Part shown: positions 32,160 through 36,471 of the stretch, in pieces
Numbering within the stretch: the stretch's first letter is position 1
How the letters are laid out: each line of letters opens with the position of its first letter
Sequence record: PV295200.1
Strand: one strand, 5' to 3'
Source: Escherichia phage vB_Eco_BCPEco_001
DNA length: 64,000 nucleotides
The notes under the pieces: generated by a model
Told to the model about the DNA's origin: nothing
Seen by the model: only the letters and a program-made list of their open reading frames with translations
Databases searched by the model: none
Made by a program: the position numbers and the translations under genes

Positions 32160-32418
32160 AGATATTAAGGGTTATAAGCCACATACTGAAGAGAAAATCG
32201 GTAAAGTGAATGCTATCAAAGATGCTGAAGTTCGTTTAGGACTTATCTTTGACGCTTTATATGACGAATTCTGGGAAGCACTAGATAATTGTGAAGACTA
32301 TGAATTCGCGAAGAATTATGCTGAAAGCCTCGATCAGTTAGCTATTGCTAAAACGAAACTCAAAGAAGCCAGTATGTGGGCTTGTCGTGCTGTGTTCCAA
32401 CCAGAGGAAAAATACTAA
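32152..32418 (+). CDS. hypothetical acidic protein
   Basis: 88 aa from ATG at 32152 with GAGGAAG RBS. Confidence 0.45.
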
Positions 32419-32696
32419 TGGCTCAATTAAGCGCAGGGTTTGGTTATGAGTATTATACTGCCCCTCGTCGTGTGTCTGCTGCTCCTAAGAAAATTCAAAG
32501 TCTTGATGATTTCCAGGAAGTAGTCCGTAAAGCTTTCCAGGACTATGCACGTTATCTTAAAGAAGATTCACAGGACTGTCTCGAAGAAGATGAAATTGCT
32601 TATTATGAGCAGCGTCTTGAACAGCTTAAAAACTTACATGAGGTCCGTGCAGAAGTTTCAAAGTCTATGAATAAATTGATTAGATTTAAAGAATAA
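32418..32696 (+). CDS. hypothetical protein
   Basis: 92 aa from ATG at 32418 ([16 protein letters not shown]...), overlaps upstream stop. Confidence 0.45.
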
Positions 32697-32698
32697 CT

Positions 32699-32728
32699 GT
32701 TTACTTTTCCTCTTGACTGTGGTATAAT
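32699..32728 (+). promoter_or_regulatory. early promoter upstream of regB
   Basis: GTTTAC, 18 nt, TG-g-TATAAT. Confidence 0.55.
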
Positions 32729-32755
32729 TTTTCTATCAGTTAAGAGGAGAATAAC

Positions 32756-33217
32756 ATGACTATCAATACAGAAGTTTTTATCCGTCGAAATAAGCTTCGT
32801 CGTCACTTTGAGTCGGAGTTTCGTCAAATTAACAATGAGATTCGTGAGGCATCAAAAGCAGCAGGGGTCTCATCGTTTCATCTAAAATATTCTCAGCATC
32901 TTCTTGATCGTGCAATTCAACGGGAGATTGATGAGACATATGTTTTTGAATTATTCCACAAAATAAAAGACCATGTTTTAGAAGTTAATGAATTCCTGAG
33001 TATGCCTCCGCGTCCTGACATTGATGAGGATTTTATTGATGGGGTTGAATACCGTCCTGGACGTTTAGAAATCACAGATGGAAATCTTTGGCTTGGATTT
33101 ACAGTTTGTAAACCTAATGCGAAGTTCAAAGACCCGTCGCTTCAATGCAGGATGGCAATTATCAATAGTCGTCGTTTACCAGGAAAGGCTTCTAAAGCAG
33201 TAATTAAAACTCAATGA
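32756..33217 (+). CDS. regB: site-specific endoribonuclease RegB
   Basis: 153 aa, the T4 RegB size; sequence recalled as RegB-like; position between denV-side ORFs and tk as in T4. Confidence 0.6.
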   Translation: MTINTEVFIRRNKLRRHFESEFRQINNEIREASKAAGVSSFHLKYSQHLLDRAIQREIDETYVFELFHKIKDHVLEVNEFLSMPPRPDIDEDFIDGVEYRPGRLEITDGNLWLGFTVCKPNAKFKDPSLQCRMAIINSRRLPGKASKAVIKTQ

Positions 33218-33224
33218 GGTAAGC

Positions 33225-33770
33225 ATGAGAAAAGCACTACTCGCTGGTCTATTGGCCATTTCAATGATGGCACATAGCTCCGAGCATACTTTCAGTAATG
33301 TCCAACTCGATAACATGCGTTACGCGTATCAATTCGGGGAACAATTTTCTAAGGATGGAAAATATAAAACACACAAAAACATCCACAAGAGTGGATTAGG
33401 TCATATAATGGCAGCCATTTTATGGCAAGAAAGCTCTGGCGGAGTTAATTTAAAATCTAAACCAAAGCATCACGCCTACGGAATGTTCCAAAATTATTTG
33501 CCTACTATGCGAGCGAGAGTTAAGGAACTTGGTTATAATATGACCGATGCTGAAATAAAAAGAATGTTGAATAAACGATCCAATTCAGCTTCCTGGGCGT
33601 ACATTGAACTTTCTTATTGGTTAAATATACATAAGGGCGATATAAGAAAAGCAATATCCTCTTATAATTCGGGATGGAATGTTAAAGCAGGTTCTAAATA
33701 TGCTTCTGAAGTCCTAGAAAAGGCTAATTACCTTAAAAATAATAAACTTTTGGAAATAGTAAATGACTAA
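33225..33770 (+). CDS. secreted protein with lytic-transglycosylase-like motif
   Basis: 181 aa; N-terminal signal peptide (MRKALLAGLLAISMMAHS); ILWQESSGG resembles the catalytic E-S motif of family GH23 transglycosylases. Confidence 0.4.
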   Translation: MRKALLAGLLAISMMAHSSEHTFSNVQLDNMRYAYQFGEQFSKDGKYKTHKNIHKSGLGHIMAAILWQESSGGVNLKSKPKHHAYGMFQNYLPTMRARVKELGYNMTDAEIKRMLNKRSNSASWAYIELSYWLNIHKGDIRKAISSYNSGWNVKAGSKYASEVLEKANYLKNNKLLEIVND

Positions 33771-34104
33771 AATTTTGGTTTTATGTATAGGATTAATTTC
33801 ATTTTCTGCGTTAGCAGATACATCATATACTGAAATTAGAGAGTATGTAAACCGTACTGCAGCGGATTATTGCGGGAAAAATAAAGCATGCCAAGCTGAA
33901 TTTGCGCAGAAATTAATATATGCATATAAAGACGGAGAAAGAGATAAATCAAGCAGATACAAAAATGATACATTGTTAAAACGATATGCTAAAAAGTGGA
34001 ATACCTTAGAATGTTCAGTTGCGGAGGAGAAAGATAAAGCCGCTTGTCATTCAATGGTTGACCGTTTAGTAGATTCTTATAATCGAGGATTGAGTACTAG
34101 ATGA
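33763..34104 (+). CDS. secreted cysteine-containing protein
   Basis: 113 aa; signal peptide MTKILVLCIGLISFSALA; four Cys. Confidence 0.4.
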   Translation: MTKILVLCIGLISFSALADTSYTEIREYVNRTAADYCGKNKACQAEFAQKLIYAYKDGERDKSSRYKNDTLLKRYAKKWNTLECSVAEEKDKAACHSMVDRLVDSYNRGLSTR

Positions 34105-34580
34105 TTGTAAAATATATCAAGGGCGATATTGTCGCCCTATTTCTTCAAGGTAATATTATTGCGCACGGGTGCAATTGCTTCCACACAATGGGCTCTGGCG
34201 TAGCAGGTCAATTAGCAAGAGCCTATCCCAAAATTTTAGAAATAGATAAAACCACTACCGAGTACGGTTCTCGTGATAAATTAGGCGATATGTCTATTGT
34301 TTTTAAACATAGTCCTACGGGATTTGGTATATGCTATAACCTGTATACACAATACGAACCGGGTCCTAATCTTGATTATGGTGCTTTAGTAAACTGCATG
34401 ATAGAATTAAATCTACAGGCAGAAACCCTTTTGTTTAAACCAGTAATTTACATTCCACGCATAGGTTGCGGTATTGCTGGCGGCGATTGGGATAAGGTTT
34501 CTAAATTAATCGACATGTTTACTCCTGATATTGATTTAATAGTGGTGGATTATGAAAGTACATTACCCGCATCCGTTTGA
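34101..34580 (+). CDS. macro-domain protein (ADP-ribose binding/processing fold)
   Basis: 159 aa; AHGCNCFHTMGSGVAGQLARAYP and IPRIGCGIAGGDWDKV resemble the two glycine-rich phosphate-binding loops of macro domains. Confidence 0.5.
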   Translation: MIVKYIKGDIVALFLQGNIIAHGCNCFHTMGSGVAGQLARAYPKILEIDKTTTEYGSRDKLGDMSIVFKHSPTGFGICYNLYTQYEPGPNLDYGALVNCMIELNLQAETLLFKPVIYIPRIGCGIAGGDWDKVSKLIDMFTPDIDLIVVDYESTLPASV

Positions 34581-34764
34581 TCCTAAAAACAAAGTGGAAA
34601 TTATTCGTCAATGGGAACGCATTTGCCGTACTAAATGCCCAATTAATAGTCCACATGATGTAGATAAAGACTATATTGGAACATTCGTTGAATATACCTT
34701 TATTGATAGGAAAGGTCGTAAACAACATGTAGAAGAATATTGTTTAAAGGTTACATGGTTATGA
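34552..34764 (+). CDS. hypothetical protein
   Basis: 70 aa ORF overlapping the macro-domain gene end. Confidence 0.35.
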   Translation: MKVHYPHPFDPKNKVEIIRQWERICRTKCPINSPHDVDKDYIGTFVEYTFIDRKGRKQHVEEYCLKVTWL

Positions 34765-34967
34765 GCCAAACTAGTATTCTTAAAAATGCCCACTGCGAAA
34801 AGTGTGAATGGCCAGTTGTTTTTGCTTTATGTAATGATGAAATGGCTTGTGATTTCGATTATTGGTGCTATTGTTCTAATAAAGGATGCATCAATCATAA
34901 AGGTGAAGGATTTTATTCAGGATTTTATCCTTATCCTGATTTCGTTAAAGAAGGTAAACCGAAATGA
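34761..34967 (+). CDS. cysteine-rich small protein (possible zinc binding)
   Basis: 68 aa from ATG at 34761 (ATGA overlap); nine Cys including CEKCEW and CYCSNKGC. Confidence 0.4.
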   Translation: MSQTSILKNAHCEKCEWPVVFALCNDEMACDFDYWCYCSNKGCINHKGEGFYSGFYPYPDFVKEGKPK

Positions 34968-35133
34968 ATAGTTTTGAGTTACAATATGAAGTGTTACGTG
35001 AGCTTGATAATTTAATTGAACTCGCTGTCAATAAAGGTTTTGCCATTGGAATCGGTCAAAAAGATACTGGTCATTTAACTATGGAAATATTTAAGCAAAA
35101 GCGAATTATTTTAAAACTCCTGGAAATTAATAT

Positions 35134-35319
35134 ATGAGTCTGAGTAAAGAACAAAAAGATAAATTGTTTGAGCTTATCCATGAACTTCTAGATGAGCATA
35201 CAGAAGCAAACACCTTTTATGATGAATACGGCCCGCTATCTCCCGAACAGCAAGAAGAATTTGCTGATCGGTTTGATAAGAAAGAAAACGAATTAATAGC
35301 TTATGTGAATATGCTTTAA
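35134..35319 (+). CDS. hypothetical acidic protein
   Basis: 61 aa ORF immediately upstream of tk. Confidence 0.4.
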   Translation: MSLSKEQKDKLFELIHELLDEHTEANTFYDEYGPLSPEQQEEFADRFDKKENELIAYVNML

Positions 35320-35328
35320 GAAGGTGAT

Positions 35329-35910
35329 ATGGCGAGTTTAATTTTTACTTACGCAGCAATGAATGCTGGAAAATCTGCTTCTCTTTTGACTGCTGCACAT
35401 AATTATAAAGAACGCGGAATGGGTGTATTAGTTCTTAAGCCTGCTATTGATACTCGCGATTCTGTCTGTGAAGTCGTTTCTCGCATTGGAATTAAGCAGG
35501 AAGCGAATATTATTACGGATGATATGGATATTTTTGAGTTCTATAAATGGGCTGAAGCACAAAAAGATATTCATTGTGTATTTGTAGATGAAGCCCAGTT
35601 TTTAAAAACTAAACAGGTGCATCAATTAAGCCGAATTGTTGATACATATAATGTTCCTGTTATGGCTTATGGACTAAGGACTGATTTCGCTGGAAAATTA
35701 TTTGAAGGTTCTAAAGAACTTTTGGCGATTGCAGATAAACTTATTGAACTAAAGGCAGTTTGTCATTGTGGTAAAAAGGCTATTATGACAGCTCGATTAA
35801 TGGAAGATGGAACACCGGTTAAAGAAGGTAATCAAATCTGTATTGGTGATGAAATTTATGTTTCTTTGTGTAGAAAACATTGGAATGAATTAACTAAAAA
35901 GCTCGGTTAG
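35329..35910 (+). CDS. tk: thymidine kinase
   Basis: 193 aa; P-loop MNAGKSASLL, Walker B VFVDEAQF, C-terminal zinc motif CHCGKKA...C. Confidence 0.9.
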   Translation: MASLIFTYAAMNAGKSASLLTAAHNYKERGMGVLVLKPAIDTRDSVCEVVSRIGIKQEANIITDDMDIFEFYKWAEAQKDIHCVFVDEAQFLKTKQVHQLSRIVDTYNVPVMAYGLRTDFAGKLFEGSKELLAIADKLIELKAVCHCGKKAIMTARLMEDGTPVKEGNQICIGDEIYVSLCRKHWNELTKKLG

Positions 35911-35952
35911 TGCAAAAGTTATAAATAGGTTTATCTAACTAAAGGGGTATAT

Positions 35953-36165
35953 ATGCTACAATTAACTGAAAAGCAACTTCGCAATCTTACTGTGCTTCAA
36001 TTAGATGAAATTCGTAGGGAAGTTGGAAATATCATTTCAGCTTTGCGTCGAGAAGTATCACTCAACCAATCTCCGGCAGACTATACTAGATTGCGAAATT
36101 TTGAAAAATACCTTGATAAAGTTAAGGCCGTGCATCGGCATAAAGTAAATACAGGACAAAAATGA
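35953..36165 (+). CDS. hypothetical protein
   Basis: 70 aa basic helical ORF between tk and rI. Confidence 0.4.
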
Positions 36166-36177
36166 TAGGAGGCCTTT

Positions 36178-36471
36178 ATGGCCTTAAAAGCAACGGCACT
36201 ATTTGCCATGCTAGGATTAGCGTTTGCTTTATCTCCATCGATTGAAGCGAATGTCGATCCTCATTTTGATAAATTTATGGAATCTGGTATTAGACACGTT
36301 TATATGCTTTTTGAAAATAAAAGCGTAGAATCATCTGAACAGTTCTATAGTTTTATGCGAACGACTTATAAAAATGACCCGTGCTCTTCCGATTTTGAAT
36401 GTATAGAGCGAGGCGCGGAGATGGCACAATCATACGCTAGAATTATGAACATTAAATTGGAGACTGAATGA
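36178..36471 (+). CDS. rI: lysis inhibition regulator RI (periplasmic antiholin)
   Basis: 97 aa; MALKATALFAMLGLAFALSPSIEANVDPHFDKFMESGIRHVYMLFENKS... matches T4 RI as recalled, including signal-anchor and conserved Cys. Confidence 0.85.
   Translation: MALKATALFAMLGLAFALSPSIEANVDPHFDKFMESGIRHVYMLFENKSVESSEQFYSFMRTTYKNDPCSSDFECIERGAEMAQSYARIMNIKLETE

What the first reader, a model, noticed from the sequence alone, without database searches (positions are those of the whole stretch)
34101..34580. Macro-domain protein in the early region upstream of tk
A 159-aa ORF carries two glycine-rich loops (HGCNCFHTMGSGVAGQL and IPRIGCGIAGGDWDKV) that resemble the phosphate-binding loops of macro domains, which bind or hydrolyse ADP-ribose derivatives. 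In a phage this suggests reversal of host ADP-ribosylation or processing of ADP-ribose-derived signals. It is followed by three very small ORFs, one Cys-rich.
Basis: partly seen in the sequence, partly recalled or inferred. Interest (0 to 1): 0.5.

Follow-up and report, generated by a model that had tools for sequence, protein, structure and literature searches.

The report
Known phage macrodomain, AdfM (Tk.4)

Summary

The window is a Tequatrovirus (T4-like) genome. The ORF sits between vs and tk.3, exactly where T4 and T2 have tk.4. T4 tk.4 has been annotated as an A1pp/macro protein since at least 2006. In a 2025 preprint it was named adfM, because deleting it makes T4 sensitive to DarTG2. 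Near-identical phages already annotate this exact ORF as "macro domain protein".

Two nuances are not stated in those papers:
- The catalytic Lys of DarG and TARG1 is an invariant Gln (Q84) in the whole Tk.4 family. The same is true of SCO6735, which still cleaves thymidine-linked ADP-ribose from DNA and needs that Gln.
- The window carries a laterally exchanged allele. It is 58% identical to T4 Tk.4 but 75-92% identical to Dhakavirus copies, inside a backbone 99% identical to T2. It is under strong purifying selection (dN/dS 0.08).

Four small ORFs follow, not three. Verdict: interpretation supported, already known, low interest.

The parts
34101..34580 (+). adfM / tk.4 allele: 159-aa single-domain macro protein (ALC1-like/TARG1-like class)
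34164..34214 (+). Loop 1, residues 22-38 (H22, G23, N25, G31-S32-G33): distal-ribose/catalytic loop
   Evidence: H22, G23, N25 and G33 are invariant in 57 family members. They align with SCO6735 H24/V25/N27. N27S in SCO6735 and N23A in PhiKZ AdfM reduce activity
34350..34352 (+). Codon CAA = Gln84, at the position of the catalytic Lys of DarG (K80) and TARG1 (K84)
   Evidence: MAFFT and hhalign alignments; invariant in the family; the equivalent Gln85 of SCO6735 is essential
34452..34499 (+). Loop 2, residues 118-133 (P119, G122, G124, G127, G128, W130): phosphate-binding loop
   Evidence: Invariant or nearly invariant columns; aligns with PRIGCGLAGG of SCO6735/BT1257 and PRIGCGLD of TARG1
34140..34607 (+). 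Divergent cassette: nucleotide identity to T4/T2 is 33-75% here, against 95-100% on both sides
   Evidence: Sliding identity; per-gene identities; the same allele occurs in Dhakavirus IME281 at 88.5% nt / 92.5% aa
34120..34138 (+). Perfect 8-bp hairpin (AGGGCGAT-ATT-GTCGCCCT) inside codons 7-13, identical in the window, T4 and T2, ending where identity breaks down
   Evidence: RNA fold -12.9 kcal/mol; function unknown
34552..34580 (+). 29-nt overlap with tk.3; the C-terminal tail of the macro ORF arises because 13 nt are missing relative to T4/T2
   Evidence: Alignment; mean pLDDT of the last residue block is 64
33763..34104 (+). vs (valyl-tRNA synthetase modifier), upstream neighbour, translationally coupled
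   Evidence: PHROG 1256 E=5e-40; 99% aa identity to T4/T2
34552..34764 (+). tk.3 homologue (DUF7202), 70 aa
   Evidence: Pfam PF23832 E=5e-37
34761..34967 (+). Cys-rich 68-aa ORF, phage zinc-binding domain; present in T2, absent from T4
   Evidence: Pfam PF23895 E=4e-29
34964..35137 (+). 57-aa ORF, PHROG 3452, unknown function; present in T2, absent from T4
35134..35319 (+). tk.2-like ORF (DUF7438), 61 aa; a second divergent cassette
   Evidence: Pfam PF24219; 54-56% aa identity to T4/T2 but 70% to Dhakavirus VR5
35329..35910 (+). tk, thymidine kinase
   Evidence: Pfam TK E=1.7e-60

Best explanation
The ORF is an allelic variant of the T-even phage gene tk.4, now called adfM (anti-DarT factor, macrodomain). 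It is a stand-alone ADP-ribose-binding hydrolase of the ALC1-like/TARG1-like macrodomain class. The host toxin DarT2 (of the DarTG2 defence) attaches ADP-ribose to thymine bases in single-stranded phage DNA and so blocks replication. This enzyme most likely cuts the ADP-ribose off again, acting as an orphan antitoxin mimic that works on the product rather than on the toxin. Its active site is the Gln type seen in SCO6735 and BT1257. Gln84, held by Asn25, positions the distal ribose, and catalysis is presumably water-mediated rather than through the Lys used by DarG and TARG1. What is shown here: the ORF, the fold, the class, the orthologous position, the conserved residues, purifying selection and the mosaic origin. 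What is taken from the literature: the DarTG2 phenotype of T4 tk.4, and the thymine-ADPr hydrolysis and Gln requirement in SCO6735. What is inferred: that this 58%-identical allele has the same activity and target.
For: Macro family and fold. Orthology: same position between vs and tk.3 as T2/T4 tk.4; 58% aa identity to T4 Tk.4 over the full length; same PHROG. Function of the orthologue: tk.4 was the single significant hit in a T4 transposon screen on a DarTG2 host, and a clean knock-out sensitised T4 to DarTG2 (bioRxiv 10.1101/2025.11.20.689424). Earlier work had shown that T4 lacking adfA and adfN is still DarTG2-resistant (PMC11825919). A phage macrodomain (PhiKZ gp104) removes DarT2-made ADP-ribose from DNA in vitro (PMC13309987). 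Mechanism: Q84 aligns with DarG K80, TARG1 K84 and SCO6735 Q85. SCO6735 cleaves thymidine-linked ADPr on DNA, Q85A is inactive and N27S nearly so (PMC9411070). The equivalents H22, N25, Q84, G122 and G124 are invariant in 57 family members down to 38% identity. The DarG models of PADLOC and NCBIfam are the best hits in those libraries at domain level. The gene is maintained: dN/dS 0.08 against the Dhakavirus IME281 copy.
Against: No experiment exists for this allele. It is only 58% identical to the tested T4 protein. Even for T4 AdfM the enzymatic step is inferred, not shown. The DNA-contacting lysines of SCO6735 (K34, K89 in a longer mobile loop) are not conserved: S32 replaces K34 and the loop is shorter. 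The protein is acidic (pI 5.0). By sequence the family is no closer to DarG than to TARG1, BT1257 or Poa1p, so substrate cannot be read from homology alone.
Confidence: 0.7

Rival explanations
1. The main substrate is not ADP-ribosylated DNA but another ADP-ribosylated macromolecule: uracil-ADPr in RNA, or Glu/Asp-linked ADP-ribose on proteins placed by a host defence ART. The DarTG2 phenotype of the T4 allele would then be one of several activities, or would not apply to this allele.
For: SCO6735 and TARG1 also hydrolyse protein-linked ADPr. TARG1, DarG and SCO6735 also hydrolyse uracil-ADPr in RNA (PMC13036486). The window allele is highly diverged from T4's and was exchanged as a cassette, which could accompany a change in specificity.
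Against: All residues invariant in the family, including the active-site set, are shared by both alleles. The only genetic phenotype known for the gene is against DarTG2. No bacterial defence that makes U-ADPr is described in the papers read.
Confidence: 0.12
2. It is a small-molecule enzyme: an ADP-ribose-1''-phosphate phosphatase (Poa1p-like, as the database label 'phosphatase' implies) or an O-acetyl-ADP-ribose deacetylase/YmdB-like RNase III regulator (as some records label it).
For: Poa1p is among the best sequence and structure matches, and the Poa1p H23 equivalent (H22) is invariant. T4's record says 'contains A1pp phosphatase motif'. The PHROG label is 'phosphatase'.
Confidence: 0.06
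3. It protects without catalysis, by binding and inhibiting DarT2 directly or by binding ADP-ribosylated DNA or ADP-ribose.
For: Catalytically dead SCO6735 (Q85A) still inhibits DarT in vitro by interaction, more strongly than DarG or TARG1. The canonical catalytic Lys is absent.
Against: The active-site residues (H22, N25, Q84, G122, G124) are invariant across relatives at 38-100% identity, as expected for an enzyme. A 159-aa single domain has no counterpart of DarG's C-terminal DarT-binding domain. The Gln is catalytically required in SCO6735.
Confidence: 0.07

Closest known systems
T4 Tk.4 = AdfM (anti-DarT factor, macrodomain), NP_049723; identical protein in T2
   Same: Same position (vs - tk.4 - tk.3), similar length (155 vs 159 aa), same fold class, same invariant residues including Gln at the Lys position, same PHROG.
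   Different: Only 58% aa / 64% nt identity inside a backbone that is 97-99% identical. The first 38 residues are near-identical and the rest is replaced. There is an 8-residue out-of-frame tail. This allele is untested.
Dhakavirus tk.4 alleles (IME281, VR5)
   Same: 92.5% (IME281) and 75% (VR5) aa identity. IME281 has the same 159-aa gene model and the same overlap with tk.3.
   Different: They sit in a genome backbone only 47-70% identical to the window.
SCO6735 (Streptomyces coelicolor; PDB 5E3B) and BT1257 (PDB 2AFC/2FG1)
   Same: TARG1-like macrodomains with Gln in place of the catalytic Lys and Ala in place of TARG1 Asp125. His, Asn and both loop Gly residues are conserved. All are orphan genes not linked to darT. 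SCO6735 removes thymidine-linked ADPr from DNA.
   Different: About 26% identity. SCO6735/BT1257 have a longer mobile loop with DNA-binding lysines (K89 and a second Lys) and K34, none of which is conserved here. They are cellular, not viral.
DarG macrodomain (antitoxin of DarTG2; PDB 5M31, 5M3I, 7OMU)
   Different: DarG uses Lys80 where this protein has Gln84. DarG has a C-terminal DarT-binding domain and is encoded next to darT. About 21% identity; 27.7 bits against the 250-bit NCBIfam cut-off.
PhiKZ gp104, also named AdfM
   Same: Stand-alone phage macrodomain that counters DarTG2, with biochemical proof of ADPr removal from DNA.
   Different: A true DarG-type macrodomain with the FPTKxxWR Lys motif. 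It matches Mtb DarG at E=9e-25, against 5e-5 for the window protein. It is imported into the phage nucleus. Two different subfamilies share one name.
Human TARG1/OARD1
   Same: Top Foldseek hit (E=7e-10, TM 0.72-0.82); the family profile scores 66 bits against it; it also reverses thymine-ADPr on DNA.

Membership tests
Macro domain (Pfam PF01661) | Sequence match above the curated Pfam gathering score | tested here: met
   32 bits against a cut-off of 22, E=1.3e-7, covering residues 22-136 and profile positions 2-117 of 118
Macro domain (Pfam PF01661) | Macro fold (mixed beta-sheet sandwiched by helices) with an ADP-ribose-binding cleft formed by two Gly-rich loops | tested here: met
ALC1-like / TARG1-like macrodomain class | Closest sequence and structure neighbours are TARG1, DarG, Poa1p, SCO6735/BT1257 and ALC1 rather than MacroD, PARG or macroH2A types | tested here: met
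Tk.4 / AdfM orthologous group of T-even phages | Conserved position between vs and tk.3 upstream of tk | tested here: met
   Gene order regB-vs.1-vs-[ORF]-tk.3-...-tk is the same as in T2, T4, VR5 and OE5505
Tk.4 / AdfM orthologous group of T-even phages | Full-length sequence homology to T4 Tk.4 | tested here: met
   58% identity over 155 aa; PHROG 335 E=1.2e-71
Tk.4 / AdfM orthologous group of T-even phages | Required for phage growth on a DarTG2-expressing host | not testable with these tools
   Shown only for the T4 allele
DarG antitoxin (NCBIfam NF048014, PADLOC DarG) | Score above the equivalog cut-off | tested here: not met
   27.7 bits against a cut-off of 250; only the N-terminal macro part of the 338-position model is matched
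DarG antitoxin (NCBIfam NF048014, PADLOC DarG) | Catalytic Lys (TaqDarG K80) in the FPTK motif | tested here: not met
   Gln84 at that column, invariant in the family
DarG antitoxin (NCBIfam NF048014, PADLOC DarG) | C-terminal DarT-binding domain and adjacency to a darT gene | tested here: not met
   159-aa single domain. The neighbours are vs and tk.3. A bacterial homologue is also an orphan
SCO6735/BT1257-type (Gln-type) thymidine-ADPr DNA hydrolases | Gln at the Lys position, stabilised by the conserved Asn; conserved His and loop Gly residues | tested here: met
   SCO6735 H24/N27/Q85/G126/G128 correspond to window H22/N25/Q84/G122/G124; their roles are described
SCO6735/BT1257-type (Gln-type) thymidine-ADPr DNA hydrolases | Extended mobile loop with DNA-binding Lys89 and a second Lys, plus Lys34 | tested here: not met
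   The loop is about 5-6 residues shorter and lacks Lys; S32 replaces K34
SCO6735/BT1257-type (Gln-type) thymidine-ADPr DNA hydrolases | Hydrolysis of thymidine-linked ADP-ribose on ssDNA | not testable with these tools
   Needs an enzyme assay
TARG1/OARD1 | Lys84/Asp125 catalytic dyad | tested here: not met
   Gln84 and Ala126 at those columns (dyad defined)
Poa1p-type ADP-ribose-1''-phosphate phosphatase | Residues probed in the deposited Poa1p mutant structures (H23, S30, F152) | tested here: inconclusive
   H23 corresponds to H22 (invariant), S30 to T29 and F152 to A126 (alignment; mutants listed). The structure paper was not in the library, so the roles of these residues are not known to me
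MacroD/YmdB-type O-acetyl-ADP-ribose deacetylase ('RNase III inhibitor' label) | Score above the NCBIfam equivalog cut-off; closest structures of MacroD type | tested here: not met

The most novel reading that the evidence does not exclude
The two deeply diverged adfM alleles that circulate in otherwise near-identical Tequatroviruses may not be equivalent. One is the T4 type; the other is the window type, shared with Dhakaviruses. The cassette may be swapped between genera because the alleles differ in substrate range (for example thymine-ADPr DNA against uracil-ADPr RNA or protein-ADPr), or because hosts carry factors that sense or inhibit one allele. More generally, the T-even AdfM would be a Gln-type hydrolase working by a different chemistry from DarG and from PhiKZ AdfM, even though all are described as DarG-like.
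Probability: 0.12. Interest if true: 0.45.

Novelty: already known. Interest (0 to 1): 0.15.

Why it matters
It adds little new biology. The gene is an annotated, widespread phage macrodomain, and its T4 orthologue already has an assigned counter-defence role. Its value is in annotation: the labels 'phosphatase', 'RNase III inhibitor' and 'hypothetical protein' on hundreds of T-even genomes should read adfM-like macrodomain. Two points may help people working on DarTG. First, T-even AdfM lacks the DarG/TARG1 catalytic lysine and looks mechanistically like SCO6735. Second, the gene is exchanged as a cassette between T-even genera, so allele-swap experiments are a natural test of specificity.

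Tried and rejected
- Filing it as DarG: rejected. It falls far below the equivalog cut-off, has no catalytic Lys, no C-terminal domain and no darT neighbour.
- TARG1 membership: rejected, because the dyad is absent.
- YmdB/'RNase III inhibitor' and O-acetyl-ADP-ribose deacetylase labels: rejected (15.7 bits against 291; more distant structures).
- The 'phosphatase' label: traced to the old A1pp domain name, with no assay behind it. Kept only as a low-probability rival.
- Looking for a darT gene next to a bacterial homologue (Pelagimonas P0094): none found; the gene is an orphan among housekeeping genes.
- Promoter scan of 32400-36200: 11 sigma-70-like sites against 14.0 +/- 3.8 expected, so uninformative. 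The 'early region' claim rests only on synteny with T4.
- Deciding between Gln-type and Lys-type affinity by profile-profile comparison: both are strong (E 6.7e-19 against 2e-16), so the comparison is only mildly discriminating.
- Searching for biochemical work on T4 Tk.4 itself: none found in the library.
- The Poa1p structure paper was not in the library.
- Gradual divergence as the explanation for 58% identity to T4: rejected in favour of cassette exchange, because the boundaries are sharp and the allele is closer to Dhakavirus copies.

Full report
**Observation.** Its start codon overlaps the stop of the upstream gene (ATGA), the usual T4-type translational coupling. Four small genes, not three, lie between it and thymidine kinase: 34552-34764 (DUF7202, the tk.3 homologue), 34761-34967 (Cys-rich, Pfam Phage_zn_bind), 34964-35137 (PHROG 3452) and 35134-35319 (DUF7438, tk.2-like). 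tk follows at 35329-35910.

- Pfam Macro (PF01661) matches nearly end to end at 32 bits, against a gathering score of 22.
- A plain sequence search of the PDB finds BT1257, Poa1p, the Streptomyces macrodomain SCO6735, the M. tuberculosis DarG macrodomain and human TARG1/OARD1.
- An AlphaFold2 model built on a 57-sequence family alignment is very confident: pLDDT 93.8, pTM 0.88, with only the last few residues weak.
- Foldseek finds TARG1, BT1257, Poa1p, DarG and SCO6735 at E = 1e-7 to 7e-10.

The protein therefore belongs to the ALC1-like/TARG1-like class of macrodomains.

**What genome and what gene.** The surrounding 1.7 kb is 99.5-99.8% identical to many Tequatrovirus (T4-like) phages of Escherichia, Shigella and Yersinia. 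The gene order regB - vs.1 - vs - [ORF] - tk.3 ... tk is that of T2 and T4, where the gene in this position is tk.4. T4's RefSeq record already notes that Tk.4 'contains A1pp phosphatase motif'. A 2006 comparative paper reported the A1pp (macro) match for tk.4 orthologues in T4-like phages (PMC1524935). The 99.6%-identical phage OE5505 annotates this very ORF, with the same 480-nt gene model, as 'macro domain protein'. tblastn finds relatives in 2,789 phage records. A survey of viral NAD/ADP-ribose systems reports macro domains in 41% of myoviruses (PMC9503650).

**Published function.**
- A November 2025 preprint (10.1101/2025.11.20.689424) screened a T4 transposon library on a DarTG2-expressing host. 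tk.4 was the single significant hit, and a clean knock-out became sensitive to DarTG2. The authors renamed the gene adfM (anti-DarT factor, macrodomain). They proposed, but did not show, enzymatic removal of ADP-ribose from DNA.
- This fits earlier work showing that T4 lacking adfA and adfN is still DarTG2-resistant (PMC11825919).
- Independently, PhiKZ gp104, also named AdfM, was shown in vitro to remove DarT2-made ADP-ribose from a TNTC oligonucleotide and to protect the phage (PMC13309987).

I found no biochemical study of T4 Tk.4 itself.

**Mechanistic nuance: a Gln-type active site.** When the window protein, T4 Tk.4, PhiKZ AdfM, two DarG macrodomains, TARG1 and BT1257 are aligned, a difference appears. 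The catalytic lysine (DarG K80, TARG1 K84, PhiKZ 'PTK') is Gln84 in the window protein, in T4 Tk.4 and in BT1257. TARG1 Asp125 is Ala126. Gln84 is invariant in 57 family members down to 38% identity, together with H22, G23, N25, G122, G124 and W130.

This is the situation described for SCO6735 (PMC9411070). It lacks the Lys/Asp residues yet efficiently cleaves thymidine-linked ADP-ribose from DNA. Q85A is inactive, N27S is nearly inactive, and G128E is impaired. A water-mediated mechanism with Gln85 positioning the distal ribose was proposed. SCO6735 H24/N27/Q85/G126/G128 map onto window H22/N25/Q84/G122/G124.

Other comparisons point the same way, though not decisively:
- The family profile ranks BT1257 (71 bits), TARG1 (66) and SCO6735 (61.5) above Poa1p (57) and the DarG macrodomains (49, 45, 33).
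- Profile-profile comparison gives E = 6.7e-19 to SCO6735+BT1257 and 2e-16 to DarG+PhiKZ.
- PhiKZ AdfM, by contrast, is a true DarG-type domain: E = 9e-25 to Mtb DarG, with the FPTKxxWR motif.

So two different macrodomain subfamilies now share the name AdfM.

Not everything matches SCO6735. Its DNA-binding lysines and its longer mobile loop are not conserved here, and the protein is acidic. DarG membership fails every specific test: 27.7 bits against a 250-bit cut-off, no Lys, no C-terminal domain and no darT neighbour.

**A laterally exchanged allele.** Against T4 and T2 the flanking proteins are 91-100% identical (vs 99%, tk.3 90-91%, tk 98-99%), but this ORF is only 58% identical. tk.2 behaves the same way, at 54-56%. 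The boundaries are sharp. Nucleotide identity is about 98% up to roughly 34140, 33-75% from there to roughly 34600, and 95% or more after 34608.

The window allele is closer to Dhakavirus copies: 75% to VR5 and 92.5% to IME281. Backbone genes are only 47-70% identical to VR5. Between the window and IME281, dS = 0.54 and dN = 0.04, giving dN/dS = 0.08. The allele is therefore a functional gene under strong purifying selection that has moved between genera.

A perfect 8-bp hairpin at 34120-34138 is identical in the window, T4 and T2, and it ends exactly where identity collapses. At the 3' end, 13 nt are missing relative to T4/T2, which puts the usual ATGA stop out of frame. The ORF therefore runs 29 nt into tk.3 and gains a low-confidence tail, ESTLPASV.

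**Rivals.**
- A different macromolecular substrate (U-ADPr RNA or protein-ADPr) is possible, because TARG1-like enzymes are promiscuous.
- Small-molecule roles (Appr1p phosphatase, OAADPr deacetylase) rest on legacy labels and do not explain the T4 phenotype.
- Non-catalytic inhibition of DarT2 has a precedent in SCO6735, but it is hard to square with an invariant active site.

**Verdict.** The feature is already known: an annotated macro domain whose orthologue has a published function. The Gln-type active site and the inter-genus cassette exchange are useful refinements, not a new kind of system.

Noticed in passing
window 35118-35328: The tk.2-like gene (DUF7438) is a second divergent cassette. 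It is 54-56% aa identical to T4/T2 but 70% to Dhakavirus VR5, inside a 97-99% identical backbone. The window also lacks tk.1, which T4 and T2 have between tk.2 and tk. Its function is unknown; the pattern resembles that of the anti-defence gene next to it.
   Followed up: partly
window 34120-34138: A perfect 8-bp hairpin with a 3-nt loop (AGGGCGATATTGTCGCCCT, about -13 kcal/mol) lies inside codons 7-13 of the macro gene. It is identical in the window, T4 and T2, and it sits at the 5' edge of the divergent cassette. It could be a recombination junction or an RNA element; this was not resolved.
   Followed up: partly
window 34761-35137: Two small ORFs are present here and in T2 (95-97% aa identity) but absent from T4: a Cys-rich zinc-binding protein (PF23895, 7 Cys) and a 57-aa PHROG 3452 protein.
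   Followed up: partly
window 34539-34580 (compared with L001 and L002): 13 nt are missing relative to T4/T2 just before the tk.3 start codon. This removes the ATGA stop/start coupling, so the macro ORF overlaps tk.3 by 29 nt. The same gene model is seen in Dhakavirus IME281.
   Followed up: yes
literature / PhiKZ gp104 compared with window 34101-34580: The name AdfM is used for two different macrodomain subfamilies: T4 Tk.4 (Gln at the catalytic position, SCO6735/BT1257-like) and PhiKZ gp104 (Lys, true DarG type). The T4 preprint describes Tk.4 as DarG-like without noting that the lysine is missing.
   Followed up: yes
public records matching window 34101-34580: Annotation of this gene is inconsistent across phage records: 'phosphatase', 'macro domain protein', 'RNase III inhibitor', 'leucine aminopeptidase' and 'hypothetical protein'. 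One cluster representative (130 aa) starts at an internal Met.
   Followed up: partly
window 33763-34104: The upstream gene vs (valyl-tRNA synthetase modifier) was reported in the same preprint as the T4 gene most depleted in minimal medium. It is 99% identical here to the T4 protein.
   Followed up: no
L003 6001-6459 (Pelagimonas phthalicica chromosome): A bacterial homologue (40% identity) of the phage macrodomain is an orphan gene among housekeeping genes. It has no darT or prophage genes within 6 kb, like SCO6735.
   Followed up: partly
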